Assembly (NCBI GenBank): GCA_020725405.1
Contig: DYFB01000039.1
Location: 44,428 to 108,427, forward strand
DNA length: 64,000 bases
Direction: 5' to 3'
DNA from: Symbiobacterium sp.
GTDB taxonomy: Bacteria; Bacillota; Sulfobacillia; UBA995; UBA9673
Every line of letters begins with the position of its first letter. The stretch's first letter is position 1. The notes below the pieces were generated by a model. It saw only the letters and a program-made list of their open reading frames with translations. It was not told where the DNA came from and searched no databases. The translations under genes were made by a program, and so were the position numbers. Positions 2,232-56,998 of this stretch are shown piece after piece.

Positions 2232-3454
2232 CTCAGGCCACCTCCGGACGGAGCGGGGCCGAGAATAGACCGCGCCGCCACGGGGCGACCTCCGCGGAGG
2301 TAGACCCGGGGGACGCGGCGTCCCACAGTGGACACTATCTCGTAGGCGATGGTTCCACAGTGGCCGGCAAGCTCCTCCGCGGTTATCCGCGCCTCTCCGG
2401 CTGAGGGACCGAGGAGCACGGCCTCGTCTCCCGGCCGGGCGCCCGGGACGGCCTCCAGCCCGACCATGATATGGTCCATGTTGACCCGCCCGAGGACCGG
2501 ACAGCTCCACCCCTGAACCAGAACGCGCCCCCGCCCCGCTAGGGCCCGCCGGTAGCCGTCGGCGTAGCCGACCGGGCAGGTCCCGATAAGGGTCGGACGG
2601 GTGGTCACGTACTCCCCCCCGTAGCTCACCGGGGTTCCGGCCGGGACCCGCTTGACGTGCATGAGCCTGGTCTTCCAGGCCATGGCCGGGAGGAGCTCGA
2701 CCCGGGAGCGGTCGACCTCCTCCGAGGGATAGAGCCCGTAGAGAGAGATGCCGGTGCGGACGAGGTCGAACCGGGTCTCCGGAAGGTCGAGAAGGGCCGC
2801 GCTGTTCGCCGCGTGGCGCCAGCGGAACCGAAGGCCCTCGCCGGCGGCGAGGTCGAGAAAGGACCGGAAGAGGTCGGTCTGACGCCGGGCTGAGGTCTTG
2901 TCCTTCTCGTCGGCCCCGGCATAGTGGGTGTAGACCCCATCGAGGACAAGACCGTCGAGGGCGGCCAGCTTCGCTGCCAGACGGACCCCTTCGGCGTCAG
3001 GGCTCACGCCGATGCGGCTCATCCCGGTGTCGACCTTGAGGTGGGCCCGGGCGGTGCGCCCGGCCCGCCGGGCAGCCGCGGCGAGCGCCTCGGCCGTCCC
3101 CATCTCGAAGACGGCGGCGGTCACGTCGTGCTCGACGATGCTCCGGGCCTGAGCCGGGCTCGACGGACCCATGATCAGTACGGGAGCCGTGAGGCCCTCC
3201 CTTCTCAGCTGGATGGCCTCCTCGAGCGTGGCCACGCCGAGCCACGTCGCCCCGGCCGCGAGGGCCGCCCGGGCGGTCTCGACGGCCCCGTGGCCGTAGG
3301 CGTCGGCCTTAACCACGGCCATGAGTTCCGCCGGCCGGGCCAGGGCCGCTAGGCGCCGGGTGTTCTCGGCGACAGCATCGAGGGATATCTCGGCCCAGGT
3401 GGGACGGTGGGCGGCCTCCCACTCGGGAACGGACGCGCGGTAGTCGAAGAGCAA
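2228..3454 (-). CDS. alr: Alanine racemase
   Basis: 408 aa; AVVKADAYGHG PLP-lysine motif, typical Alr length and C-terminal domain. Sits downstream of acpS-nnr, as in many Firmicutes. Confidence 0.9.
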   Translation of the reverse strand: MLFDYRASVPEWEAAHRPTWAEISLDAVAENTRRLAALARPAELMAVVKADAYGHGAVETARAALAAGATWLGVATLEEAIQLRREGLTAPVLIMGPSSPAQARSIVEHDVTAAVFEMGTAEALAAAARRAGRTARAHLKVDTGMSRIGVSPDAEGVRLAAKLAALDGLVLDGVYTHYAGADEKDKTSARRQTDLFRSFLDLAAGEGLRFRWRHAANSAALLDLPETRFDLVRTGISLYGLYPSEEVDRSRVELLPAMAWKTRLMHVKRVPAGTPVSYGGEYVTTRPTLIGTCPVGYADGYRRALAGRGRVLVQGWSCPVLGRVNMDHIMVGLEAVPGARPGDEAVLLGPSAGEARITAEELAGHCGTIAYEIVSTVGRRVPRVYLRGGRPVAARSILGPAPSGGGLS

Positions 3455-3602
3455 CGCCTGCCCCTCCTATCGTGATCGAAGCTATCCACGGACCGTCACA
3501 GGACCGTACCAGGATCTCCGCCGACGAAGGTCTCGGGCGGGAGCGGACTCGCCCGAGCCCGCCCGGTCCCGCCCGGCCCCGCTGGTGCTGACCCTGCGGG
3601 AG

Positions 3603-5288
3603 TCAGGCGTCGACGAGAATGGGTCCGTAGCCGGTCGCCCCGGCGAGCGACTCGGCGGCCCGGGGCAGACGGTGGGCCACGTCGGAGGCCAGAAGGCCCC
3701 GTGACCCGACCTCGGCGGCGGCGAGGTCCCCGGCCAGACCGTGCACGGCCACCCCGAGAAGGGCCGCCTCCAGAGGGGGAACCCCCTGGGCCAGGTAGGC
3801 GCCGATGGCCCCGGCCAGGACGTCGCCGCTGCCGGCGGTGGCCAGCCCCGGGTTCCCGGTGGCGTTGAGCCAGGCCCGACCATCCGGAGCGGCGACCACC
3901 GTGCCCGCTCCCTTGAGAACGACCACGCAGCGCCAGGCCGTGGCGGCCGCGAGGGCCGCTGCGGTGCGGTCGGCCTGGATGTCCTCCGCCGGGCGGCCCG
4001 TCAGCCGGGCCATCTCGCCCGGGTGCGGGGTGAGAACCGGAACGAGGGCGTCCGGTCTCCGGGTGGACGAGAGTGCGTCGGCCACGGCCTCCGGACCGGC
4101 GAGAGCCAGGTTGTTCAGGGCATCGGCGTCGAGGACCACGGGCAAGGACAGCCGCCCGACGAGACGGCCGACGACGGCGGCCACCCCGTCGCCGACGCCG
4201 AGCCCTGGGCCGGCGACGAGCGCGGTCCTCCCCGCCGCCCCGCCGAGGGCCGCACCGAGGGTCGTATCGAGTTCCCCGGCCGCGTCCGCGGACAGCCGGC
4301 CGGAGGTGTCCTCCGGAAGACCGCGGGTGAGCGCTTCGGGCAGGGCGCCGGCCACAAGAGGGCGGCTCCCTTCGGGGCAGAGGGCCGTCACCAGCCCGGC
4401 GCCCGCCCGCAGCGCTCCCAGCGCGGCCAGGACCGCGGCTCCGGTGAAGCCTGGCGAGCCGGCGAGAACGAAGACACGCCCGAAGGTGCCCTTGTGGCCG
4501 GTGACCGGTCGCGGGGGAAGCCACACCGCGGCCTCCGGCGGTAGGAGCCATCTCAGAGCACCGCGGCGCGGGCGGGCGCCGGAGTCGGCCGACGCCTCTT
4601 CGAGACAGCGCGAGGGAAGACCGATGGGGGCGAGATAGAGCCTGCCGGTGTGCTCGCGCGCCTCGGGCGCGGCCAGGCCGGCCTTGACCCCCCCGAAGGT
4701 GACCGTGGCGGCGGCCCTCACGGCCTCCCCCCGGGCCCGCCCGGTGTCCGCATCGAGACCGGACGGAAGGTCAACAGCCAGGACCCGGGGGCCGGAGACC
4801 GAGTTGACCAGCGCTATGAGGTCAGCCACGGGCTCACGCGGCCTTCCGCGCGCCCCCGTACCGAGCAGGGCATCGACGACGACGGCAGCCCTGGCTAGAA
4901 GCGGGGCGAACTCGCTCGGGCCCAGGCCTGCTTCTCCGAAGACGCGGGGCCGGGCGAAGCCACCCCGCGTGAGAGCCTCGAGGTTGGTCCGGGCGTCCCC
5001 GGCCAGGGTTTCGGCCGCTTCGGCCAGGACGACCTCGACCGGCAGGCCCCTCTCGGCCAGGTGTCTTGCGGCGACCAGGCCGTCGCCGCCGTTGTTCCCG
5101 CGGCCGGCGAGGACGACCACAAGGCCGGGGACCGAGCCGCGGGCGCGGGCCTCGGGCTCGACCAGGTCCAACACCACCCGGGCCACGGCCCGACCGGCAT
5201 TCTCCATCAGGACCAGCGAAGGTATCCCGCTGGCCGTGGCCAGTTCATCGGCCCGCTTCATCTCGGCTGCGGTGTAGAGCCGGACCAT
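3603..5288 (-). CDS. nnr: Bifunctional NAD(P)H-hydrate repair enzyme Nnr (YjeF_N epimerase + YjeF_C ADP-dependent dehydratase)
   Basis: 561 aa. N-terminal VVLAGRGNNGGDGLVAARHL (YjeF_N) and C-terminal GHKGTFGRVFVLAGS...GSGDVLAG (carbohydrate-kinase-like YjeF_C). ATG at 5288 overlaps the acpS stop (ATGA). Confidence 0.9.
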   Translation of the reverse strand: MVRLYTAAEMKRADELATASGIPSLVLMENAGRAVARVVLDLVEPEARARGSVPGLVVVLAGRGNNGGDGLVAARHLAERGLPVEVVLAEAAETLAGDARTNLEALTRGGFARPRVFGEAGLGPSEFAPLLARAAVVVDALLGTGARGRPREPVADLIALVNSVSGPRVLAVDLPSGLDADTGRARGEAVRAAATVTFGGVKAGLAAPEAREHTGRLYLAPIGLPSRCLEEASADSGARPRRGALRWLLPPEAAVWLPPRPVTGHKGTFGRVFVLAGSPGFTGAAVLAALGALRAGAGLVTALCPEGSRPLVAGALPEALTRGLPEDTSGRLSADAAGELDTTLGAALGGAAGRTALVAGPGLGVGDGVAAVVGRLVGRLSLPVVLDADALNNLALAGPEAVADALSSTRRPDALVPVLTPHPGEMARLTGRPAEDIQADRTAAALAAATAWRCVVVLKGAGTVVAAPDGRAWLNATGNPGLATAGSGDVLAGAIGAYLAQGVPPLEAALLGVAVHGLAGDLAAAEVGSRGLLASDVAHRLPRAAESLAGATGYGPILVDA

Positions 5289-5860
5289 CAGGACCGACCT
5301 CCAGGGGCCGCCCAGCAGCCCGGACCGGACCGCTCTGCGAGGCAGAGGGCCTGGGCCGCCGCAAGGCGCCGGGTGTGGGTCAGGCTGACCACCACGGCGG
5401 CTACTCCGAGGTCCCGGGCCGCCTGGAGGGCCCGCCCCCGCAGGACGACCTCCGGGCGACCTTCCGGAGTCTTGACTATTTCCACGTCGAGCCAGCCGAC
5501 AGCGGGCCGTCCCCGGCCGAGAGCCTTGAAGACGGCCTCCTTGGCGCAGAAGCGGGCCGCCAGCCGCTCGAAGCGGTCAGGTCCGGCGCCGGCGTCCTCC
5601 ACCTCGCCGGAGGTGAACACGCGGGCGAGGAAGCCGTCACCCCAACGCCGGGCGGCCCGCTCGATCCGGGCCACCTCGACGAGGTCGAGACCGAGGCCGA
5701 GAGCCGGGACGAGTGCGGGTGGACCCGCCCGGCCGCCGGGGGTCGCCGCACGTCGCGGACCCGCCCGGCCGCCGGGGGTCGCCGCGCGTTGTGGACCCGC
5801 CCGGCCGCCGGGGGTCGCCGCACGTGGCGGACCCGCCGGGCCGTTCCCGGACGGAGCCAT
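5288..5860 (-). CDS. acpS: Holo-[acyl-carrier-protein] synthase with a Pro/Gly-rich repeat N-terminal extension
   Basis: C-terminal ~130 aa LGLGLDLVEVARIERAARRWGDGFLARVFTSGE...FCAKEAVFKALG is the AcpS 4'-PPTase fold. Preceded in frame by 3x PRAATPGGRAGP. Start chosen at ATG 5860 (GGTGGTGA RBS); GTG 5872 is also possible. Confidence 0.8.
   Translation of the reverse strand: MAPSGNGPAGPPRAATPGGRAGPQRAATPGGRAGPRRAATPGGRAGPPALVPALGLGLDLVEVARIERAARRWGDGFLARVFTSGEVEDAGAGPDRFERLAARFCAKEAVFKALGRGRPAVGWLDVEIVKTPEGRPEVVLRGRALQAARDLGVAAVVVSLTHTRRLAAAQALCLAERSGPGCWAAPGGRS
5713..5840. repeat. 39-bp tandem direct repeat x ~3.2 (ggacccgcccggccgccgggggtcgccgc(a/g)cg(t/c)...) inside the acpS 5' region
   Basis: Seen directly: three near-identical 39-nt units. 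They encode the 13-aa repeat RAATPGGRAGP(Q/R/P)R in the acpS reading frame on the minus strand. Confidence 0.85.
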
Positions 5861-6920: not shown

Positions 6921-7070
6921 CCTCTTCTCTCCCTTCCCTTCTCTCCCTCGCCTTCTCTCCCTTCCCTTCTCTCCCTCGCCTTCTCTCCCTTCCCTTCTTC
7001 TCCTTCGCTTCTCTCCCTTCGCTTTTTCCCCTTCGCTTCTCTCCCTACTGCCTTCCCCTGCCTTCCCCGG
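6921..7070. repeat. ~150-bp almost pure polypyrimidine (CT) tract made of ~5 degenerate ~28-bp direct repeats (cttctctcccttcccttctctccctcgc)
   Basis: Seen directly. The plus strand is ~100% C/T over 150 nt. Lies in the 600-bp divergent intergenic region between the isomerase gene (minus) and the CaCA antiporter (plus). Confidence 0.9.
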
Positions 7071-7194: not shown

Positions 7195-7330
7195 AGTTGG
7201 CCGGGCGAAGGGGAGTAGCCCACGACTTCGCAAGCGTCAGCACGGCTGGGTCCGACCCGGCCCGCTCCCGAGCCCGGGTCCGCCATCCCGGGAGCGAGAC
7301 CTTCGACGGCCTCCGCGCCAAGGGCGACGG
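7195..7330 (+). ncRNA. Possible yybP-ykoY (Mn2+) riboswitch-like leader upstream of the CaCA antiporter
   Basis: Contains GGGGAGUAGCC (7210-7220), identical to the motif upstream of terC at 8728-8738, and a downstream GAGACCUUCG (7296). It sits in the 5' leader of gene 7400..8629. The motif match is partial and recalled from memory of the RF00080 consensus. Confidence 0.35.
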
Positions 7331-7399
7331 GCGCGGCCGTGGAGGTCTTTTTGCAGGTCAGGTCGACAAGACTAGACCCTGGAGGTCGAGTTCCGGACG

Positions 7400-8629
7400 A
7401 TGAGACCCCTCGCACCCCTCTTCCTGGCTGTGGGCGCTACCCTACCTTGGCTGTCTCTGCGCCTCTCGGGTTTCCACGGGACTCCGATGGCTGAGGCCGC
7501 CCTGGCCGGGATGGCCATCCTCGGGGCGGCCTTCATCCTTTCTTGGGCCGCCGAGCTGGCGCGACTGGAGATATCGGCCCACCTGGCCGTGGCCGTGCTG
7601 GCCTTCATCGCCGTTCTGCCCGAGTACGCCGTCGACATCTACTTCGCCTGGCAGGCCGGGCAGGATCCCGCTTACGCTCACTACGCCGTAGCCAACATGA
7701 CCGGAGCCAACCGGCTGCTCATTGGTCTCGGCTGGAGTGCCGTGGTCCTCACTTTCTGGTGGAGGTCCAGGCGGCGCGTCCTGGCCCTGGGAAAGCACGA
7801 CCGGCTCGAACTCGGCGCCCTCGCCCTGGCCACGGTCTACGCCATAGTCATACCGTCCAAGGCCAACCTCTCTCTCCTCGACACGGTCGTGCTCATCGCC
7901 GTGTTCCTGATCTACATCCGGGCCGCGGCCGCTCAGGCGGTGGAGGAGCCCGAGCTTCTCGGCCCGGCGGCCGCCCTGAGTGAACTCCCCGTGAACTGGC
8001 GGCGACTGACGACAGTAGGCATGTTCGTTTTCGCCGCGGTCGCGATCCTGCTCTCGGCCGAGCCGTTCGCCGAAGGTTTGGTCGGAACGGGCAAGCTCCT
8101 CGGTATCGACGAGTTCTTCTTGGTCCAGTGGCTGGCCCCCCTGGCCTCCGAGGCCCCCGAGTTCATCGTGGCCATCCTCTTCGCCGTCCAGGGGCGGGCG
8201 AATCTGGGCATCCGGACGATGATCTCCTCGAAGGTCAACCAGTGGACGCTTCTCATCGGGATGCTGCCCCTGGCCTACGCCATCTCTTCCGGCGGGCTCC
8301 AGCCGCTCCCGATGGACGCGCGCCAGGTGGGCGAGGTGGCTCTCACCGTGGCCCAGAGTGCCTTCGCCATCGTCGTTCTGGCCAGGTTCACCTTCTCTGT
8401 GTGGTCGGCGGCGGCTCTGGCGGTGCTCTTCATCAGCCAGCTCTTCCTCCCCTCACTGCACGGCCTCTTCACCGGCATCTACGCCGCGCTGTCCTTGGGC
8501 ATCATCCTGGCCGACCCGAGACGCCTGGTGACCCTCGGACCCTCGATGGCGGCGCTTTTCTCCGGGAAGGAGCCGGGCGGTGCCCCCGGGGATGAGGGGC
8601 GCGGCGGGAGAGAGGACGGGACCGCCTGA
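7400..8629 (+). CDS. Ca2+/cation antiporter (CaCA family, sodium/calcium exchanger membrane region, YrbG-like)
   Basis: 409-aa polytopic membrane protein with two internally repeated halves carrying the GxSxPE-like alpha-repeats of Na_Ca_ex proteins (LASEAPEF...). ATG at 7400 with GGAGG 14 nt upstream. Confidence 0.75.
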   Translation: MRPLAPLFLAVGATLPWLSLRLSGFHGTPMAEAALAGMAILGAAFILSWAAELARLEISAHLAVAVLAFIAVLPEYAVDIYFAWQAGQDPAYAHYAVANMTGANRLLIGLGWSAVVLTFWWRSRRRVLALGKHDRLELGALALATVYAIVIPSKANLSLLDTVVLIAVFLIYIRAAAAQAVEEPELLGPAAALSELPVNWRRLTTVGMFVFAAVAILLSAEPFAEGLVGTGKLLGIDEFFLVQWLAPLASEAPEFIVAILFAVQGRANLGIRTMISSKVNQWTLLIGMLPLAYAISSGGLQPLPMDARQVGEVALTVAQSAFAIVVLARFTFSVWSAAALAVLFISQLFLPSLHGLFTGIYAALSLGIILADPRRLVTLGPSMAALFSGKEPGGAPGDEGRGGREDGTA

Positions 8630-8714
8630 GCCACCGGGCAATGGCCGTGCGGTGGCCACGCCCGTTGACAGGCGGGGGTGAAGGACCGATAATGAGCGGG
8701 TAGACACTAGGGAG

Positions 8715-8880
8715 CGGGCGCGACCCTAGGGGAGTAGCCAACCTGGTTCGCCCAGGTGGTGCAGTCGGTCAATACGGGGAAACCCCCGATTGCACCTGCC
8801 CCCGGCGTTGGGGCACGGCAAGACCTGGCCCGACGGGGACAAGGTCCTGCCGTGCCGCGTTCTTTCTCGGGGCTTTGAGG
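8715..8880 (+). ncRNA. yybP-ykoY family Mn2+ riboswitch-like leader of terC
   Basis: CUAGGGGAGUAGCCAACCUGGUUCGCCCAGGUGG... carries the conserved GGGGAGUAG loop motif, followed by helices (CCUGG/CCAGG; GGGGAAACCCCC). Sits immediately 5' of a TerC-family gene, the classic yybP-ykoY target. Confidence 0.5.
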
Positions 8881-8913: not shown

Positions 8914-9891
8914 ATGAGTTTCGGTGGTCTTGCCCTGTGGGTAGCCTTCAACGCCTTCGTTCTGGCCATGCTGGCTCTTGATCTCGGGGTCTTTCATCGG
9001 AAGCCCCGCGAGGTGTCAACCAGGGAGGCCGCCGTATGGAGTCTCGTCTGGGTGGCCCTGGCGATGGTCTTCAACCTTGCTCTGGGTTTCTGGCAGGGAC
9101 GCGACCTGGCCCTGGAGTTCCTGACGGGCTACATCATAGAGAAGTCCCTCAGCGTTGACAACGTCTTCGTTTTTGTGATGATCTTCCGCTACTTCAGCGT
9201 ACCGCCCCGGTATCAACACCGTGTGCTTTATTGGGGCATCGTCGGCGCCCTGGTCATGCGCGGCGCGTTCATCGCGGCCGGCGTCACGCTGCTGGCCCGA
9301 TTTGACTGGGTCATCTACGTCTTCGGCCTGTTCCTTGTCCTGACCGGTTTGAAGATGGCTCGGTCAAAGCAGAGCGCAGGTCCCGAACCCGAGGCCAACC
9401 CCGTTATCGGGTTCTTCCGGAGGGTCTTCCCCGTCACCGACGGCTACAGGGGGCACCGCTTCTTCGTGCGGGAGGACCGACGGCTCTTCGCGACCCCTCT
9501 GTTCCTGGTGCTCGTGATGGTGGAAACCACGGACCTTGTCTTCGCCCTTGACTCCATCCCGGCCATCTTCGGGGTGACCCGAGACCCGTTCATCGTCTAC
9601 TCCTCAAATGTCTTCGCCGTCCTGGGGCTCCGCGCCCTGTACTTCCTGTTGGCCGGCGTCATGGATCTGTTCCGCTACCTGAGGACCGGGCTGGCCGTCA
9701 TCCTGGCCTTCATCGGTCTCAAAATGCTGCTCTACGACCTCTACCACCTTCCGGTCACCGTTTCCCTCGGAGTGGTCCTGGGTATTCTGGCCGTGTCGGT
9801 ATCGGCTTCCGTCCTGACCTCACCTCGCGTCAGGGTGGGCGGGTCAGCCCGGGTCGAGCGGGCGAGAACGACGAGAACGAGAAGAGAATAA
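8914..9891 (+). CDS. terC: TerC family integral membrane protein (YkoY/Alx-like, probable Mn2+ efflux)
   Basis: ORF 8875..9891; the ATG at 8914 (MSFGGLALW...) is preferred. Multi-TM protein with conserved TerC motifs (SVDNVFVFV, ALDSIPA). Confidence 0.85.
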   Translation: MSFGGLALWVAFNAFVLAMLALDLGVFHRKPREVSTREAAVWSLVWVALAMVFNLALGFWQGRDLALEFLTGYIIEKSLSVDNVFVFVMIFRYFSVPPRYQHRVLYWGIVGALVMRGAFIAAGVTLLARFDWVIYVFGLFLVLTGLKMARSKQSAGPEPEANPVIGFFRRVFPVTDGYRGHRFFVREDRRLFATPLFLVLVMVETTDLVFALDSIPAIFGVTRDPFIVYSSNVFAVLGLRALYFLLAGVMDLFRYLRTGLAVILAFIGLKMLLYDLYHLPVTVSLGVVLGILAVSVSASVLTSPRVRVGGSARVERARTTRTRRE

Positions 9892-9896
9892 CGAAG

Positions 9897-9932
9897 AAGG
9901 AGAGGATGGCTCTCACCCCGCGGTGATCCTCT
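9897..9932. terminator. Hairpin in the convergent intergenic region (ggagaggat-N18-atcctctcc), candidate bidirectional terminator
   Basis: 9-bp perfect inverted repeat seen directly just 3' of terC; glmS converges from the other side. There is no U-tract, which is common in high-GC genomes. Confidence 0.35.
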
Positions 9933-9934
9933 CC

Positions 9935-10018
9935 TTCCGGCCACCCTCTCCTTCCGGCCACCCTCTCCCTCCGGCCACCCTCTCCCTCCGGTCACCCTCT
10001 CCCTCCGGTCATCCTCTC
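9935..10018. repeat. 17-bp tandem direct repeat x ~5 ((c/t)ca(c/t)cctctcc(c/t)tccgg)
   Basis: Seen directly between the terC 3' end and the glmS 3' end. CT-rich on the plus strand, like the 6921-7070 tract. Confidence 0.85.
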
Positions 10019-11984: not shown

Positions 11985-12175
11985 CGTCCTCCGGAAGAAC
12001 GCGGTCGGGGTCCGACCACACCAGCCCCTGTTGTCCCGCCCGTCACCGGACGGTTTTGTGGGACCTTTCCGGCCTGTGGTCAAGGCCGCCGGGCACCCGC
12101 CGAAACTTCGAATAACCCGGTCCTCGTCAACTCCCGCCGCCTCACGACCTCGCGGGAGTTCCGGCGCTAGGTCTT
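11985..12175 (-). ncRNA. glmS ribozyme (GlcN6P-responsive self-cleaving riboswitch) in the glmS 5' leader
   Basis: Minus-strand transcript reads ...GACCU A|GCGCC GGAACUCCC...GGGAGUUGACGAGGACCGGGUUAUUCGAAGUUUCGGCGGGUGCC... It has the canonical cleavage-site AGCGCC (A at 12168), the core GACGAGGA and a UUAUUCGAA segment. Location between glmM and glmS matches the Firmicutes arrangement. Confidence 0.8.
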
Positions 12176-12289
12176 TCCTGAGACCTTTCTCGTGAGCCAA
12201 TACCTTCCCGGCCGTCTTCCAGGGACCTCCCGGACACCCCGTCCGGGCCCTTCGAGTCTGTCCGCCCGTCCTGCGGCTGGGTCACCGCG

Positions 12290-17960: not shown

Positions 17961-19100
17961 TCAGCACCCCAGGTTCCTGGCGATGACCAGGCGCTGGATC
18001 TCCGACGTCCCTTCTCCTATCTCCATCAGCTTGGCGTCCCGCAGATATCGCTCGACCGGATACTCATCCATATAGCCGTAGCCCCCGTGGATCTGCACGG
18101 CCTGGAGGGCGGCCCTGACGCAGGTCTCGGAGGCGAAGAGCTTGGCCATGGCCGCCTCCCGCCCGAAGGGAAGGTGGTTGTCCTTCAACCAGGCCGCCTT
18201 GAGGGTCATGAGCCGCGCCAGTTCGGTCTCCATGGCCATGTCGGCCAGCTTGAACTGGATGGCCTGGAACTTGGAAATGGCCTGGCCGAACTGGACCCGG
18301 GTCTTGGCGTACTCCAGGGACGCGTCAAGACAGGCCTGGGCGATGCCCACGGACAGGGCAGCGATGCTGATGCGCCCGCCGTCCAGGGCCGTCAGAAACT
18401 GCCGGAAGCCGGCGCCGCGCTCCCCGAGGAGCGCATCTTCCGGGAGCCGGCAGTCGGCGAAGACGAGCTCGGCGGTGTCCGAGGCCCTGAGCCCGAGCTT
18501 GGAGTACCTCTGACCGACCGAGAAGCCGGGCGCGTCGGCCGGAACGACGAACGAGCTTATGCCCCGCGACCCCTTCCCGGGTTCGGTCACGGCCGTGGCG
18601 ACGACGACCCCGGCCAGCGAAGCGTTGGTGATGAAGCACTTCGTGCCGTTCAGCACCCACTCCCCGTCGACGAGCGAGGCCGTCGTCTCCGTCCCTCCGG
18701 CGTCCGAACCGGCGCCCGGCTCGGTGAGGCCGAAGGCGGCCAGAACTTCCCCCCTCAGGCACGGGCCGAGCCAGCGTTCCTTCTGGACCCGGCTTCCGAA
18801 GAGATAGATCGGCATGGTCCCGATGGAGACGTGGGCGGCGTAGGAGATACCGAGCGAGGCCGAGACGCGAGATATTTCCTCGACCGCCAGGGCGTAGGCG
18901 AGGTATCCGGCTCCGAGACCGCCGACCTCCTCGGGGAAGGGGAGGGCGAAGAAGCCCATTTCTCCCATCCGGGCGAAGACCTCCCGGGGGATGGCCTTCT
19001 TCTCCTCCCACTCGGCGACGTGAGGCTGGACTTCCTTGAGGGCGAAATCCCGGGCCATTCTCTGCAGCATCCGCTGTTCCCCGGTGAGCTGGAAATCCAT
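17961..19100 (-). CDS. Acyl-CoA dehydrogenase (short/branched-chain type)
   Basis: 379 aa. Motifs [11 protein letters not shown], catalytic Glu region [29 protein letters not shown], and ends ...ARNLGC. Confidence 0.9.
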
Positions 19101-49299: not shown

Positions 49300-49420
49300 C
49301 CTTCAAGTGCTCAACCAAAGGCACGTGGCAGAGTAGATGTTCCCGCGTTAAGTGCCAGAGGATGGGAGGTCGCCTCTGGACGAAAGGCGGGCCGCGACCG
49401 GTCCGCCTGCGGTGGGGCAT
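49300..49420 (+). ncRNA. THF (tetrahydrofolate) riboswitch upstream of folT
   Basis: GGCAGAGUAGAUGUUCCCGCGUUAAGUGCCAGAGGAUGGGAGG... matches the conserved THF-I core (AGAGUAG...CGCGUUAAGUGCC). Lies directly 5' of an ECF folate S-component gene. Confidence 0.7.
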
Positions 49421-49503
49421 CGCTTCCGCTGTCACATCAAAGACGCCTCCGTCTCTGGTGTGGCCTGCCGGCCTGCCTGAAGAGAAGGGAGGTGTCGTTG
49501 TTC

Positions 49504-53099: not shown

Positions 53100-54695
53100 T
53101 CAGGGTTCCATGGGCTCAAGTCCGCCGCTGGCGTCGAGACTCATCTCGCCCGAGACAAGCTTCACTCTGACGTGCCTCAGCCACTCGGCGTCGTCCTGCT
53201 CCGGGAAGTCAGCCCGGAAGTGCAGGCCCCGGCTCTCCTTCCGGTAGCGGGCGGACCTGATGACCGCCTCAGCGACGAGCAGGACGTTGAGGGCTTTCAG
53301 GGCCGCCCAGATCTCGGTGCTGGTGCCGGTCTCGCAGCTGAAAGGCATGGCCCTTTTGATCTTGTTGAGCTCGGACTGCGCGGCGTCCAGGCTCTCCCGC
53401 GTCCGGACGAGAGCCGCATGCCGCCACATGGCCAAGGCGATGCGTCTGACCGCGTCCTGCGGACGGGGGGCACCGGGCTGGGTGGACTCGAGGAGGGCCA
53501 TGACCCGGCGGACCCGCTCGCGGGCCCCGCGCTCGACATCGCCCGGCGGGACACCGGTCCCGCCCGGAAGACCGGCGACGTACTTCCCGGCCCGCCACCC
53601 GGTGACGAGGGCCTCGGTAAGGCCGCTCCCACGGAGGCGGTCCGCGCCATGACTCCCGGCCACCGCCTCGCCGGCGACGACCAGACCGTGGACCCTTGTC
53701 TGCCCGTGGTCGCCGCAGACGACACCCCCCAGGGTGTGATGGGCGACGGGCCTCACCGGAACCGGAACGATGACGCCGGCGGCGGTCGCGCCCGGTCCCG
53801 AGGGGTCGCCGGGGGTTAGAACCACGGTCGCCTCCTCCTGCCGGGCGGCGAACTGCCCCATCACCTGCTCGTAGATGCGGCGGGCGAGCTCGCCCGGACC
53901 GATCCGCCCGTCAAGAAAGGCAGGGAGGCCGGCGTCCTCGGTAACGTCCCGCTCACCGGAGACGAGACGCATCCCCCCGAGCAAGCGGGGCTCAAGGCAC
54001 CTCCAGACGCCGCCGGCCTCATCGGGCTCGCCGGCTGCAACCGGCCAGAACTGAACGAACTCCATGTCCGCCAGAACGGCTCCGGCCCGGAAAGCTGCGG
54101 CCAGGCCGTCTCCGGTGGCGCTGGGCGAGTGACTCGTGTAGGGATAGAGACCGGCGGCCCCGCCGGTGGCCAGGACGACGGCCGGTGTGGTGATAGCTAC
54201 CCAGCCGGCCGCTGACCGGTCGTAGGCCAGAAGGCCGGTGACGGAGCCGCCGTCGGGAGCGACGAGGACGTCCCAGGCCAGGGCTTCCAGGGTTCTCACC
54301 CCTGCCCCCTCCAGAGCCCCGCGGAGACAGCCCGTCAGAACCTCACCCGGAGGACGTCCGGCGCCCTCGACGGCAAAGCCGGTGTCCGTGTCGCGCGTCC
54401 TGACCCCGGCCGCTTCGAGAAGCTGCCGGGCGCTCGGGGCGTCTTCGGCCATGGCCCTGGCCAGTGAGCGCTGGGCGAGGTATCCCCCGGCCGCCAGGGT
54501 ATCGAGGAAATGGCGCTCGGCCGTGTAGCCGCCGGTGGCGCAACGGAACCACCCGCCGCTGCGAGCCGTGGCCGCCGGAGTCTCGGGGTCACGGATAAGG
54601 AGGGGGGCCCTGCCGCTCTGGTAGAGAGTGAGGGCCGCGGTGAGTCCGGCGAGCCCGGACCCGACGACCACGACGTCGGCCTCGCGGGAGAGCAT
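53100..54695 (-). CDS. FAD-dependent oxidoreductase of the L-aspartate oxidase / fumarate-reductase flavoprotein family (NadB-like)
   Basis: N-terminal DVVVVGSGLAGLTAAL Rossmann motif. Conserved HHTLGGV and RYRKESRGLHFR motifs characteristic of NadB/FrdA/SdhA. No nadA/nadC adjacent. Confidence 0.75.
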   Translation of the reverse strand: MLSREADVVVVGSGLAGLTAALTLYQSGRAPLLIRDPETPAATARSGGWFRCATGGYTAERHFLDTLAAGGYLAQRSLARAMAEDAPSARQLLEAAGVRTRDTDTGFAVEGAGRPPGEVLTGCLRGALEGAGVRTLEALAWDVLVAPDGGSVTGLLAYDRSAAGWVAITTPAVVLATGGAAGLYPYTSHSPSATGDGLAAAFRAGAVLADMEFVQFWPVAAGEPDEAGGVWRCLEPRLLGGMRLVSGERDVTEDAGLPAFLDGRIGPGELARRIYEQVMGQFAARQEEATVVLTPGDPSGPGATAAGVIVPVPVRPVAHHTLGGVVCGDHGQTRVHGLVVAGEAVAGSHGADRLRGSGLTEALVTGWRAGKYVAGLPGGTGVPPGDVERGARERVRRVMALLESTQPGAPRPQDAVRRIALAMWRHAALVRTRESLDAAQSELNKIKRAMPFSCETGTSTEIWAALKALNVLLVAEAVIRSARYRKESRGLHFRADFPEQDDAEWLRHVRVKLVSGEMSLDASGGLEPMEP

Positions 54696-55668: not shown

Positions 55669-56998
55669 TCTGAACCAGCCCGGCGTCAGACGGGTTCGAG
55701 CTCTTGCGGGCCTCGCGCTCGAGGACCTTCAGAGTTACGTCGTCCAGGCAGGCCCGCACGGTCGGCCCCTGGCTCACGAGGAAGTCCGGACTGCGAGAGA
55801 CCGATTTCCGCCAGGCGTCGAGCGCCTCCCGAGCCTCGCCGCGCCGGGCGAGAGCCACCCCGAGGACGAACTGAGCCCGCGGGTGGGCCGGCGAGGCGAT
55901 GACCGCCTGTCGGGCGTAGTCCGCGGCCAGGTCAAGGTCGCCCTTCCGAGTGTAGACCTCCGAAAGGTTCGCCAGAATGTCGGGGTTATTCTCCTGCCCC
56001 TCAAGAAGAGCCTTCCATTCGGCGAGGGCCTCATCGTAGCGCCCGAGCCTGGTGAAGGCTGCGGCCAGGTTAATGCGGGCCGGACGGTGCCTGGGTGAGA
56101 GTTCGAGCGCCTGCCGCCACTCGGCGAGGGCCTCCTCGGTCCGGCCCTGCCGGAAGAGAGCCACCCCGAGGTTGTGATGGGCGTCGGCGTAGCCCGGGCG
56201 GACCTCGAGGGCCTTCCGCCAGACCTCTACGGCCCTATCGAGGTTTCCGCGGGCGAGATAGGCCTCCCCCTGGTTCAGGTACGGCTCGGGGTCCCGGAGA
56301 TCGAGGGCAATAGCCCGGTCGTAGGCCTCGATGGCCTCCTGGACCCGCCCGAGGCGCATCAGGGCGAGACCCCGGTTGAGCTCGGCGGTGGCGGTCCTGG
56401 CCCCGAGCCTGACCGCCTCCCCGCTTTCGACCAAGGCGTCCTCGAACCGCCCTGCGTCAAGATAGGCCGCCCCGAGGTTAACCCGGATGCGGGGGTCGTC
56501 GGGGTCGAGGTCCCTGGCCTTCTCCCAGGCGGAGATGGCCGCCTCGAGCTTGCCGCGTGCCAGGTAGACCTCGCCGAGATGAACGTAGGCCAGGGGCGGC
56601 CGGGCCTCGGGCTCCGCCTCTATGCTCTTGCGAAGCTCGTGGATGGCCGCGTCCCACATCCCCTTGAGGGCGTAGGTCTTGCCGAGGAAGTAGCGGCTGG
56701 CCGCATGCCCCGGGTTTGCCTTGACGACTTCCTTCCAGCGGCTGATGGCCCGGTCGTAGTCCCCGGCCTCGGCGAGGGCCACACCGGCCAGGTGCAGGCC
56801 GTCGATGTCCCGCCGGTTGAGGTCGTGGGCGTGGTCGAAAGCCTCGGCCGCCTGAGCGAAGCGGCCGAGTTCCATATAGGCGACGCCCATGTCGTGGTAG
56901 GCCGCCCAGTTCCTCGGGTCGCGCCGCAGGACCTCAAGGCAGGTGGCGATGACCCTCTCCATCCTCGCGGTGCGCTCGTCCTTCCCCTTCTCCGTCAT
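55637..56998 (-). CDS. Tetratricopeptide (TPR) repeat protein
   Basis: ~11 TPR units (W-LG-Y-A-F-A-P consensus). Start at MTEKGKDE (ATG 56998, GGGGGAGG RBS). Confidence 0.8.
   Translation of the reverse strand: MTEKGKDERTARMERVIATCLEVLRRDPRNWAAYHDMGVAYMELGRFAQAAEAFDHAHDLNRRDIDGLHLAGVALAEAGDYDRAISRWKEVVKANPGHAASRYFLGKTYALKGMWDAAIHELRKSIEAEPEARPPLAYVHLGEVYLARGKLEAAISAWEKARDLDPDDPRIRVNLGAAYLDAGRFEDALVESGEAVRLGARTATAELNRGLALMRLGRVQEAIEAYDRAIALDLRDPEPYLNQGEAYLARGNLDRAVEVWRKALEVRPGYADAHHNLGVALFRQGRTEEALAEWRQALELSPRHRPARINLAAAFTRLGRYDEALAEWKALLEGQENNPDILANLSEVYTRKGDLDLAADYARQAVIASPAHPRAQFVLGVALARRGEAREALDAWRKSVSRSPDFLVSQGPTVRACLDDVTLKVLEREARKSSNPSDAGLVQTIRALKEPAR

What the first reader, a model, noticed from the sequence alone, without database searches (positions are those of the whole stretch)
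7195..8880. Two consecutive transporter genes (CaCA antiporter, TerC) each preceded by a GGGGAGUAGCC-containing yybP-ykoY-like leader
Seen: the identical 11-mer GGGGAGTAGCC occurs at 7210-7220 and 8728-8738, each 150-190 nt upstream of a membrane-transporter start codon and each followed by GC-rich helices. GGGGAGUAG is the hallmark loop of the yybP-ykoY Mn2+ riboswitch, and TerC is its classic target (established). A CaCA-family Ca2+/cation antiporter under the same kind of leader would be an unusual member of the Mn regulon, suggesting it may export Mn2+. The first element is a weaker match and is flagged as inference. The two genes may form a Mn-detoxification mini-island.
Basis: partly seen in the sequence, partly recalled or inferred. 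Interest (0 to 1): 0.6.

Follow-up and report, generated by a model that had tools for sequence, protein, structure and literature searches.

The report
Two adjacent manganese-type riboswitches controlling transporters
Two neighbouring membrane-transporter genes in an uncultured Bacillota genome each sit behind their own manganese-type (yybP-ykoY) RNA switch, which is a real but largely expected arrangement because both kinds of transporter have already been linked to this switch elsewhere.

Summary
Both leaders have yybP-ykoY hallmarks: P1.1 switch helix, L1 GGAGUA, 7-nt L3 with the key adenosine, 3' [AG]AGACC, and a terminator that competes with P1.1 (ON switch). Leader 2 is a canonical four-way junction with its own promoter. 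Leader 1 lacks P2, like E. coli alx. Rfam RF00080 reports neither leader, but it also misses validated alx and scores validated mntP 0.1 bit under threshold. Covariance models built only from other organisms' leaders hit leader 1 (67 bits), leader 2 (39 bits), alx (26 bits) and mntP (31 bits), with strong covariation. Leader 1 is conserved upstream of about 12 of 15 close CaCA relatives and was acquired sporadically in other phyla. The exchanger resembles PDB 4KPP (CAX_Af by my recollection). A CaCA antiporter under this riboswitch that exports Mn is already published for Bordetella BP3410, in a different CaCA branch. Verdict: new members of a known kind. Ligand and substrate are inferred.

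The parts
7203..7309 (+). Leader 1 aptamer, a yybP-ykoY-class three-way junction with no P2. Elements: P1.1 7206-7211/7300-7305 (CGAAGG/CCUUCG); L1 5' strand 7212-7217 (GGAGUA, A-minor adenosine A7214); P1.2 7218-7219/7294-7295; 7-nt joiner 7220-7226 where P2 would be; P3.1 7227-7236/7263-7272; L3 7237-7243 (UCAGCAC, key adenosine A7239); P3.2 7244-7251/7255-7262; P4 7273-7278/7287-7292; L1 3' strand 7296-7299 (GAGA).
   Evidence: Model R1, which contains no window sequence, scores it 62.7 bits, E 2e-13. R2 scores it 67.3 bits, E 4e-17. RNAalifold on an unfitted MAFFT alignment gives the same helices. With only P1.1 and P1.2 enforced, ViennaRNA returns this fold.
7296..7352 (+). Leader 1 expression platform: an intrinsic terminator. 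The hairpin spans about 7296-7349 (-35.5 kcal/mol) and its 5' strand reuses GAGACCUUC, which is the L1 3' strand plus the P1.1 3' strand. The U-run is 7348-7352.
   Evidence: Seen in the MFE folds of the full leader. The terminator conformer is -81.1 kcal/mol against -67.3 for the aptamer-enforced conformer. The simple terminator scan missed it because the stem is bulged.
7400..8629 (+). CaCA-superfamily cation/H+ exchanger, 409 aa. GGAGG at 7381-7385 is the likely Shine-Dalgarno sequence. It is a close relative of PDB 4KPP.
   Evidence: Pfam PF01699 Na_Ca_ex with two stretches, 2.4e-25. phmmer against the PDB finds only 4KPP, E 1.5e-92, residues 11-383. The family profile scores 4KPP at 463 bits and NCX_Mj at about 21 bits. 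The alpha-repeat motifs LPEY and SEAPEF are invariant in the family.
8665..8693 (+). Sigma-70-type promoter for the TerC unit: TTGACA, 17-nt spacer, GATAAT (11 of 12 matches). It lies about 30 nt upstream of the leader 2 aptamer.
   Evidence: Promoter scan found 3 sites in the region against 0.2 expected from shuffles.
8722..8833 (+). Leader 2 aptamer, a canonical yybP-ykoY four-way junction. Elements: P1.1 8726-8730/8824-8828 (CUAGG/CCUGG); L1 5' strand 8731-8736 (GGAGUA, A8733); P1.2 8737-8739/8817-8819; P2 8741-8746/8752-8757; P3.1 8758-8768/8786-8796; L3 8769-8775 (UCAAUAC, key adenosine A8771); P3.2 8776-8778/8783-8785; P4 8797-8802/8810-8815; L1 3' strand 8820-8823 (AAGA).
   Evidence: R2 scores it 39.1 bits, E 6e-9, full length. 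R1 scores it 17 bits, E 0.047. The 4WJ fold is within 1 kcal/mol of the aptamer-only MFE. Its L3 matches the L. lactis UCAAUUC at 6 of 7 positions (PMC6754395).
8812..8867 (+). Leader 2 expression platform: an intrinsic terminator. The hairpin spans 8812-8856 (-36.7 kcal/mol) and its 5' strand contains the P1.2, L1 and P1.1 3' strands (8817-8828). The U-rich tract UUCUUUCU is at 8860-8867.
   Evidence: MFE folds. The terminator conformer is -84.5 kcal/mol against -68.1 for the aptamer-enforced conformer. The full-leader fold has z = -3.4 against shuffles.
8914..9891 (+). TerC/Alx-family membrane protein, 325 aa, a putative Mn2+ exporter or metalation factor.
   Evidence: Pfam PF03741, 2.5e-55. 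NCBIfam TIGR03718 'R_switched_Alx', 433 bits against a cut-off of 246.

Best explanation
Both leaders are transcriptional ON riboswitches of the yybP-ykoY (Mn2+) class, and each gates its own transporter gene. Proposed mechanism: when the metal is low, the weak P1.1 helix does not hold. Its 3' strand, together with the L1 3' strand, is captured by downstream sequence to form a long terminator hairpin followed by a U-tract, and transcription stops before the gene. When cytoplasmic Mn2+ rises, L1 (GGAGUA) docks on L3, with the metal bound partly through N7 of the L3 adenosine (A7239 in leader 1, A8771 in leader 2). This stabilises P1.1, blocks terminator formation and allows read-through. Leader 2 is a canonical four-way junction with its own promoter and drives an Alx-type TerC. 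Leader 1 is a P2-less three-way-junction variant and drives a CAX_Af-like cation/H+ exchanger, which I infer exports Mn2+, possibly alongside Ca2+. Shown here: the sequence and structure features, the mutually exclusive folds, conservation and covariation, and the protein families. Inferred: the ligand, the direction of the switch in vivo, and the transported ion.
For: Class membership. R1 was built only from 8 CaCA-gene leaders of other organisms. It hits leader 1 (62.7 bits), validated E. coli alx (26.2 bits, E 2.4e-4, full length) and leader 2 (17 bits). R2 was built from 13 non-window sequences. It hits leader 1 (67.3 bits), leader 2 (39.1 bits) and E. coli mntP (31.2 bits, E 1.2e-6), which was not in its seed. 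mntP is itself the one sequence RF00080 recognises.

Covariation on the 13-sequence alignment: 94.5% of cells paired, 20 of 26 pairs with changes on both sides, 0 of 500 shuffles as high, and slid controls at 26-52%. RNAalifold on an unfitted MAFFT alignment gives the same helices.

Binding-site nucleotides are retained. L1 GGGGAGUAG is identical to mntP. L3 is UCAAUAC in leader 2 and UCAGCAC in leader 1, against UCA41AUUC and ACA48UACU in the crystallised aptamers (PMC6754395).

Expression platforms. The terminators overlap the P1.1 3' strand and are favoured by 14-16 kcal/mol.

Genes. TerC matches TIGR03718 'R_switched_Alx'. The CaCA leader is present upstream of about 12 of 15 close homologues (>=60% identity) and in separate Actinomycetota and Chloroflexota genomes.

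Precedent. A riboswitch-controlled CaCA antiporter exports Mn in B. pertussis (PMC8546581). Some CAX transporters carry Mn2+ (PMC4982074).
Against: Rfam RF00080 reports neither leader at E<=10, even on tight stretches. For leader 2, which looks canonical, I cannot fully explain this. The covariation count was made on an alignment fitted to the model, and most seeds are related CaCA leaders (effective sequence number 2.35). No promoter was found for leader 1. By my recollection, the only characterised close homologue of the exchanger (4KPP / CAX_Af) was described as an H+/Ca2+ exchanger. The cation-site residues are invariant across family members with and without the leader, so nothing in the protein points specifically to Mn2+. 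Three close homologues lack the leader (L082, L083, L138).
Confidence: 0.78

Rival explanations
1. Leader 1 is a specificity-shifted yybP-fold variant that responds to Ca2+ (or another divalent ion) rather than Mn2+, and it controls a true Ca2+/H+ exchanger. Only leader 2 would then be a Mn2+ switch.
For: The exchanger's only close solved relative is 4KPP, which by my recollection is the H+/Ca2+ exchanger CAX_Af. The S. pneumoniae mgtA aptamer, also a three-way junction, binds Ca2+ about 50-fold more tightly than Mn2+ (PMC6649816). Breaker's group state that some yybP variants probably have altered metal specificity (PMC7266159).
Against: L1 and the UCA of L3, including the Mn-discriminating adenosine, are unchanged in leader 1 and throughout its clade. 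Even mgtA is activated far more by Mn2+ than by Ca2+ (PMC6649816). The Bordetella riboswitch-controlled CaCA protein exports Mn despite its annotation (PMC8546581). The gene sits next to a canonical Mn-riboswitch/Alx unit.
Confidence: 0.1
2. Leader 1, being P2-less like E. coli alx, integrates alkaline pH with Mn2+, so that a cation/H+ antiporter is induced mainly under alkaline stress.
For: R1 aligns end to end with alx, the pH-responsive three-way-junction member. alx couples Mn2+ sensing to alkalinity (PMC12153347, PMC10197570). The regulated protein uses H+ as counter-ion.
Against: The alx pH response works through a translational platform and pausing. Leader 1 has a plain intrinsic terminator. 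Within the same orthologous leader lineage, P2 is present in L089 and L091, so P2 loss looks like drift in the junction rather than a functional signature. No data here bear on pH.
Confidence: 0.07
3. The leaders are not ligand sensors. They would be GC-rich intergenic hairpins or attenuators that share an 11-mer by chance, as the negative Rfam result would suggest.
For: RF00080 gives no hit. With one mismatch, the 11-mer is no more frequent than chance. The leader 1 full fold has only z = -1.75.
Against: Independent models link both leaders to two experimentally validated riboswitches at E values from 1e-4 to 1e-17. There are compensatory changes in 20 of 26 pairs. The element is conserved upstream of orthologous genes in many metagenomes while the flanks diverge. 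The RF00080 copy fails on validated controls.
Confidence: 0.04

Closest known systems
Bordetella pertussis BP3410 leader: a yybP-ykoY riboswitch controlling a CaCA-superfamily Mn exporter (Capek et al. 2021, PMC8546581)
   Same: A Mn-class riboswitch directly upstream of a two-domain Na_Ca_ex (CaCA) antiporter, with transcription stopping inside the leader when Mn is absent. That protein was shown to export Mn despite its calcium:cation annotation.
   Different: BP3410's closest crystallised homologue is NCX_Mj (YrbG-like branch). The protein here matches 4KPP at 463 bits but NCX_Mj at only about 21 bits, and E. coli YrbG not significantly (E 0.078). It is therefore a separate, distant CaCA branch recruited independently. 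No experiments exist for this one.
E. coli alx riboswitch (yybP-ykoY, three-way junction lacking P2) with the Alx TerC-family exporter (PMC12153347, PMC10197570)
   Same: Leader 1 shares the P2-less three-way junction and aligns end to end with alx under model R1. The window's TerC protein belongs to the same Alx subfamily, TIGR03718.
   Different: alx is a translational, pH-tuned switch, said to be confined to Enterobacterales. Leader 1 is a terminator-based switch in a Bacillota MAG lineage and controls a CaCA exchanger rather than TerC. The window's TerC is preceded by a four-way junction, not a three-way junction.
L. lactis yoaB, X. oryzae and E. coli mntP Mn2+ riboswitches (canonical four-way junction; PMC6754395)
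   Same: Leader 2 has all four helices. It has L1 GGGGAGUAG, the L3 UCAAUAC (6 of 7 identical to L. lactis), the 3' AAGACC, and a P1.1-overlapping terminator, as in the transcriptional members. Model R2 hits leader 2 and mntP alike.
   Different: Leader 2 is very GC-rich, with an 11-bp P3.1. It is not reported by the RF00080 copy used here.
S. pneumoniae mgtA riboswitch (three-way junction lacking P4) controlling a Mn2+/Ca2+ P-type ATPase (PMC6649816)
   Same: A junction-reduced yybP-ykoY aptamer with a terminator platform, placed in front of a transporter from a 'calcium' family that also moves Mn2+.
   Different: mgtA lacks P4, not P2, and the transporter is an ATPase rather than an exchanger. 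One relative of leader 1 (L091) does show the P4-less form.
PDB 4KPP; the identification with CAX_Af, the Archaeoglobus fulgidus H+/Ca2+ exchanger, is from my memory (CAX_Af is cited in PMC10227063 and PMC4982074 without the code)
   Same: About 50% identity over residues 11-383. The alpha-repeat motifs AVLPEYAVD and APLASE(A/S)PE(F/L) are the same.
   Different: It is archaeal, has no riboswitch, and was described as a Ca2+ transporter. Whether it carries Mn2+ could not be established from the papers held.

Membership tests
yybP-ykoY (Mn2+) riboswitch, Rfam RF00080 | Score at or above the Rfam gathering threshold (45 bits) with the curated covariance model | tested here: not met
   No RF00080 hit for either leader, whether at gathering on the whole window or at E<=10 on 361-401-nt stretches and 113-119-nt stretches. 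Controls: validated mntP scores 44.9 bits, E 4e-11; validated alx gives no hit. The held model has no P1 helix and no 3' GAGACC. The criterion also fails for accepted members, so I do not treat it as excluding membership.
yybP-ykoY (Mn2+) riboswitch | Conserved L1: 5' GGGGAGUAG, with the A-minor adenosine, opposite a 3' [AG]AGA strand, closed by P1.1 and P1.2 | tested here: met
   Leader 1: CGAAGG-GGAGUA-GC ... GC-GAGA-CCUUCG. Leader 2: CUAGG-GGAGUA-GCC ... GGC-AAGA-CCUGG. P1.2 covaries across relatives, with GC, AU, UA and UG pairs.
yybP-ykoY (Mn2+) riboswitch | L3 internal loop on P3 carrying the invariant Mn-contacting adenosine ([U/A]C-A...) | tested here: met
   L3 is UCAGCAC (A7239) in leader 1 and UCAAUAC (A8771) in leader 2. 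The crystallised aptamers have UCA41AUUC and ACA48UACU (PMC6754395). The CA is invariant in all CaCA-clade leaders.
yybP-ykoY (Mn2+) riboswitch | Four-way junction with two coaxial legs (P1-P2 and P3-P4) | tested here: not met
   This row records leader 1, which does not meet the feature: a 7-nt joiner (7220-7226) replaces P2, giving a three-way junction. The same is accepted for the family members alx, which lacks P2 (PMC12153347), and mgtA, which lacks P4 (PMC6649816). Leader 2 meets the feature, with P2 at 8741-8757 and P4 at 8797-8815.
yybP-ykoY (Mn2+) riboswitch | Homology to experimentally validated members, detectable with an independent structure-aware model | tested here: met
   R1 (no window or E. 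coli sequence): leader 1 at 62.7 bits, alx at 26.2 bits, leader 2 at 17 bits. R2 (no window or mntP sequence): leader 1 at 67.3 bits, leader 2 at 39.1 bits, mntP at 31.2 bits; window noise is 16 bits or less.
yybP-ykoY (Mn2+) riboswitch | P1.1 'switch helix' whose 3' strand alternatively pairs in the expression platform | tested here: met
   The terminator 5' strands (7296-7304 and 8812-8828) include the P1.1 3' strands. The two folds are mutually exclusive, and the terminator is favoured by 14-16 kcal/mol.
yybP-ykoY (Mn2+) riboswitch | Selective binding of Mn2+ and Mn2+-dependent gene activation | not testable with these tools
   This needs in-line probing, ITC, in vitro transcription or reporter assays.
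TerC / Alx subfamily (NCBIfam TIGR03718 'R_switched_Alx') | Score above the curated cut-off and a yybP-ykoY leader upstream | tested here: met
   433.2 bits against a cut-off of 246.4, covering profile positions 4-301 of 303. Leader 2 lies directly upstream.
CaCA superfamily, CAX_Af-like branch | Two Na_Ca_ex repeats with conserved alpha-repeat acidic residues, and close similarity to 4KPP | tested here: met
   PF01699 with two stretches. 4KPP at E 1.5e-92 and 463 bits with the family profile. E75, D79, E251 and E254 are invariant in 32 homologues.
CaCA superfamily, YrbG/NCX_Mj-like branch (that of Bordetella BP3410) | Significant sequence similarity to YrbG or NCX_Mj | tested here: not met
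   BLASTP against E. coli YrbG gives E 0.078 over 46 residues. NCX_Mj scores only about 21 bits, E about 1e-3, with the family profile. NCBIfam TIGR00367 scores 23 bits against a cut-off of 180.

The most novel reading that the evidence does not exclude
The P2-less leader conserved in front of CAX_Af-like exchangers is a yybP-fold variant whose physiological signal is not simply Mn2+, for example Ca2+ or Mn2+ combined with alkaline pH. That would make it a dedicated riboswitch for a cation/H+ exchanger. A milder version, which I consider much more likely than this strong one, is that the structurally solved CAX_Af branch of 'calcium' exchangers consists of physiological Mn2+ exporters in bacteria.
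Probability: 0.1. Interest if true: 0.7.

Novelty: new member of a known kind. Interest (0 to 1): 0.3.

Why it matters
The finding adds a second, distant branch of the CaCA superfamily to the set of transporters gated by Mn2+-class riboswitches. This is the branch that has a crystal structure (4KPP). The link suggests a testable function for a large, poorly characterised family currently annotated as 'sodium:calcium antiporter' or 'cation:H+ antiporter', namely Mn2+/H+ exchange. It also shows that the P2-less three-way-junction form, reported as confined to Enterobacterales alx, occurs in a terminator-type switch in Bacillota MAGs. P2 and P4 come and go within this one orthologous leader lineage. 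On the practical side, the curated Rfam model misses these GC-rich leaders, and public annotation has extended the CaCA ORF through the riboswitch. Elements like this are therefore probably under-counted in high-GC metagenome-assembled genomes.

Tried and rejected
1. Rfam cmscan gave no RF00080 hit on the whole window at gathering, on about 400-nt stretches, or on about 115-nt stretches.

2. I made and then corrected an error about the Rfam library. After the alx control failed I concluded that RF00080 was missing from it. A second control with mntP showed that the model is present but insensitive. The earlier notebook entry is corrected in note 5.

3. The key papers Dambach 2015, Price 2015 and Meyer 2011 are not held. 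I could not check their gene-association tables for CaCA entries.

4. Text search for the motif sequence in papers found nothing relevant.

5. Six TerC homologues were fetched to build a separate four-way-junction seed. Only one (L147) had the motif, so I dropped that route.

6. The first constrained folds used P1.1 pairs that were one base off. They were redone correctly.

7. Weak model hits at 18830-18928, 56298-56379 and 53144-53261 in the window, and at 5750-5852 in L070, lack the GGGGAGUAG core or lie in coding sequence. I rejected them as noise.

8. L016 and several other GGGAGUA matches in loci lack the 3' AGACC and were rejected as chance.

9. A megablast of alx against E. coli genomes added nothing.

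10. The 'genomic island' reading was not adopted. There are no mobility genes. The only support is lower GC and two flanking repeat arrays.
Full report
OBSERVATION

GGGGAGTAGCC occurs exactly twice in the window, at 7210-7220 and 8729-8739 on the + strand. With one mismatch allowed, the count (4) matches chance expectation (3.0), so the 11-mer alone proves nothing. The two copies lie 190 and 185 nt upstream of two co-directional genes. The first (7400-8629) encodes a Pfam Na_Ca_ex (CaCA) protein. The second (8914-9891) encodes a Pfam TerC protein.

Rfam cmscan found only a glmS ribozyme and a THF riboswitch in the window. It found no RF00080 hit for either leader at E<=10, in stretches of about 400 nt or about 115 nt.

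As a control I ran the E. coli alx leader, which also gave nothing. From that I wrongly concluded that the family was missing from the library. A second control with E. coli mntP showed that RF00080 is present. mntP scores 44.9 bits (E 4e-11), which is 0.1 bit under the gathering score.

The printed alignment shows the limits of the held model:
- It leaves the 5' UUGGGGAGUAGCC block unpaired.
- It has no P1.1/P1.2 closing helix and no 3' GAGACC strand.
- It expects a 9-nt L3 (UCAACAUAC).
- It ends in a P4 with a loop of about 75 nt.

The negative is therefore a real result, and I report it as such. However, the model also fails on one validated member and is borderline on the other, so it cannot decide the question. 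Why leader 2, which looks canonical, gets no score at all is not fully explained.

ANATOMY

Leader 2 reads as a textbook four-way junction:

| Element | Coordinates | Sequence or note |
|---|---|---|
| P1.1 | 8726-8730 / 8824-8828 | CUAGG / CCUGG |
| L1 5' strand | 8731-8736 | GGAGUA |
| P1.2 | 8737-8739 / 8817-8819 | GCC / GGC |
| P2 | 8741-8757 | hairpin |
| P3.1 | 8758-8768 / 8786-8796 | 11 bp |
| L3 | 8769-8775 | UCAAUAC |
| P3.2 | 8776-8778 / 8783-8785 | |
| P4 | 8797-8815 | hairpin |
| L1 3' strand | 8820-8823 | AAGA |

Its L3 matches the L. lactis L3 (UCA41AUUC) at 6 of 7 positions. The adenosine whose N7 contacts Mn2+ is in place (PMC6754395). With only P1.1 and P1.2 enforced, ViennaRNA returns this fold, within 1 kcal/mol of the aptamer-only MFE.

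Leader 1 has the following elements:

| Element | Coordinates | Sequence or note |
|---|---|---|
| P1.1 | 7206-7211 / 7300-7305 | CGAAGG / CCUUCG |
| L1 5' strand | 7212-7217 | GGAGUA, identical to leader 2 |
| P1.2 | 7218-7219 / 7294-7295 | GC / GC |
| Joiner | 7220-7226 | 7 nt, in place of P2 |
| P3.1 | 7227-7236 / 7263-7272 | |
| L3 | 7237-7243 | UCAGCAC |
| P3.2 | 7244-7251 / 7255-7262 | |
| P4 | 7273-7278 / 7287-7292 | |
| L1 3' strand | 7296-7299 | GAGA |

Leader 1 is thus a three-way junction lacking P2.

EXPRESSION PLATFORMS

In both full leaders the MFE is a long hairpin followed by a U-tract.

| | Terminator hairpin | U-tract | Terminator fold | Aptamer-enforced fold |
|---|---|---|---|---|
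| Leader 1 | about 7296-7349 | UUUUU 7348-7352 | -81.1 kcal/mol | -67.3 kcal/mol |
| Leader 2 | 8812-8856 | UUCUUUCU 8860-8867 | -84.5 kcal/mol | -68.1 kcal/mol |

In each case the 5' strand of the hairpin is made of the L1 and P1.1 3' strands of the aptamer, so the two folds exclude each other. This is the default-OFF, ligand-ON design described for transcriptional members of the class (PMC6754395, PMC6649816).

A near-consensus promoter (TTGACA-17-GATAAT, 8665-8693) sits just upstream of leader 2, so TerC is its own transcription unit. The hairpin after the CaCA stop codon has no U-tract. Read-through from the first unit into the second switch is therefore possible, but that is inference. 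No promoter was recognised for leader 1.

COMPARATIVE EVIDENCE

The CaCA protein has thousands of homologues. I collected 80 genome loci, 54 metagenome loci and several contigs, then looked upstream of each CaCA gene.

- Among relatives at 60% identity or more, about 12 of 15 distinct loci carry a leader homologous to leader 1. L082, L083 and L138 do not.
- None of about 36 metagenome loci at 57% identity or less carry it.
- Among the 80 more distant genome loci it appears directly upstream in L002 (Clostridia), L053 (Pseudonocardiaceae) and L060 (Dehalococcoidia). In L054 (Chloroflexi) it lies ahead of a response-regulator/kinase pair that precedes the CaCA gene.

The association is therefore inherited in one clade and was acquired sporadically elsewhere.

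RNAalifold on an unfitted MAFFT alignment of ten clade members returns the same P2-less architecture.

INDEPENDENT COVARIANCE MODELS

R1 was built from eight leaders of other organisms, with no window or E. coli sequence. Its hits:

| Target | Bits | E-value |
|---|---|---|
| Leader 1 | 62.7 | 2e-13 |
| E. coli alx riboswitch (full length) | 26.2 | 2.4e-4 |
| Leader 2 | 17.0 | 0.047 |

R2 was rebuilt from the 13 non-window hits of R1, including alx and the distant leaders. Its hits:

| Target | Bits | E-value |
|---|---|---|
| Leader 1 | 67.3 | 4e-17 |
| Leader 2 | 39.1 | 6e-9 |
| E. coli mntP (not in the seed) | 31.2 | 1.2e-6 |

The best noise hit in the window is 16 bits. Since mntP is the sequence RF00080 does recognise, this links both leaders to the curated family.

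On the 13-sequence alignment, 94.5% of cells pair. Twenty of 26 pairs show changes on both sides. No shuffle out of 500 reaches this, and slid controls fall to 26-52%. The caveat is that this alignment was fitted to the model.

THE PROTEINS

The TerC protein matches NCBIfam TIGR03718 'R_switched_Alx' at 433 bits against a cut-off of 246. That subfamily is named for its riboswitch association.

The CaCA protein's only solved relative by phmmer is 4KPP (E 1.5e-92). From memory this is CAX_Af, the A. fulgidus H+/Ca2+ exchanger. CAX_Af is cited in PMC10227063 and PMC4982074, but without the PDB code.

The family profile scores 4KPP at 463 bits and NCX_Mj at about 21 bits. E. coli YrbG is not significantly similar. 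The alpha-repeat residues E75, D79, E251 and E254 are invariant in homologues with and without the leader. Nothing in the protein itself singles out Mn2+.

WHAT IS ALREADY KNOWN

- P2-less three-way junction: described for E. coli alx, and stated there to be confined to Enterobacterales (PMC12153347).
- P4-less three-way junction: described for streptococcal mgtA. That aptamer binds Ca2+ more tightly than Mn2+ but is activated more by Mn2+, and it controls a Mn2+/Ca2+ ATPase (PMC6649816).
- CaCA antiporter under this riboswitch: B. pertussis BP3410 has two Na_Ca_ex domains and NCX_Mj as its closest structure. It is controlled by a yybP-ykoY riboswitch and was shown by genetics and ICP-MS to export Mn (PMC8546581).
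- Some CAX transporters carry Mn2+ (PMC4982074).

CONTEXT

A conspecific MAG contig (L141, 98% identity, 'Bacillota bacterium') has the same CaCA-TerC-glmS order and both leaders. A 75%-identical relative (L136) has the CaCA gene and leader next to glmS, with no TerC. The TerC protein's identity drops from 98% straight to 69% in unrelated phyla. This suggests the TerC unit joined the locus separately. The pair is lower in GC than its flanks and is bracketed by the only two pyrimidine-rich tandem arrays in the window. I found no mobility genes, so 'island' is justified only as adjacency.

VERDICT

Both elements are real members of the Mn2+ riboswitch class, terminator-based and ON-type. One is canonical and sits in front of an Alx-type TerC. 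The other is a P2-less variant in front of a CAX_Af-like exchanger.

Three points are new but modest:
- A second, distant CaCA branch is recruited to this regulon.
- The P2-less architecture occurs outside Enterobacterales.
- The junction is plastic within one leader lineage.

The ligand and the transported ion are inferred, not shown. I rate this as a new member of a known kind, with interest about 0.3.

Noticed in passing
window 6924-7046 and 9928-10018: These are the only two pyrimidine-rich tandem arrays in the 64-kb window (14-nt CTTCTCTCCCTTCC x8.8 and 17-nt CCTCTCCCTCCGGCCAC x5.4). They bracket exactly the CaCA-TerC pair, which is also lower in GC (0.62-0.67) than its flanks (0.69-0.77). 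The first array is also present in the conspecific contig L141. Their function is unknown.
   Followed up: partly
window 12013-12179 (-) and 49327-49433 (+): A glmS ribozyme (92.7 bits) lies upstream of the minus-strand glmS gene next to TerC. A THF riboswitch (74.1 bits) lies elsewhere in the window. Both are above the Rfam gathering score.
   Followed up: no
window about 7196-7399; L141 6001-6204: The public annotation of the 98%-identical protein (P0001, 477 aa) extends the CaCA ORF 68 codons upstream, straight through the riboswitch. Homologues of about 400-415 aa, and 4KPP, align from the ATG at 7400. The riboswitch is therefore hidden inside an over-called CDS.
   Followed up: partly
L054 40-134, with genes at 213-893, 897-2321 and about 3001-4056: In a Chloroflexi MAG, a complete yybP-type aptamer with a terminator precedes an OmpR-type response regulator and a histidine kinase. 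A small ORF and the CaCA homologue follow on the same strand. This may be a riboswitch-gated two-component system.
   Followed up: partly
L091 2312-2407; L089 357-474; L139 2303-2473 and L086 1264-1434: Within the orthologous CaCA leader lineage the junction varies. Most members lack P2. L091 has P2 but no P4 (a GCAAGA joiner, like streptococcal mgtA). L089 has both. L139 and L086 carry a GC-rich insertion of about 70 nt inside P4.
   Followed up: partly
Rfam RF00080 as held; L142 3468-3558 and L001 2373-2504: The RF00080 copy (177 positions) has no P1 closing helix and no 3' GAGACC strand in its consensus. It scores validated E. coli mntP at 44.9 bits, under its gathering score of 45, and does not detect validated E. 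coli alx at all.
   Followed up: yes
window 5705-5843: A GC-rich tandem repeat (36-nt unit x3.4, also readable as 72-nt x2.0) lies in the region upstream of the pair, probably inside coding sequence.
   Followed up: no
L136 and L137 versus the window and L141: The CaCA gene keeps its position beside glmS in a 75%-identical relative that has no TerC. TerC's nearest relatives beyond the species are only 69% identical and come from diverse phyla. This suggests the TerC-riboswitch unit was inserted separately.
   Followed up: partly
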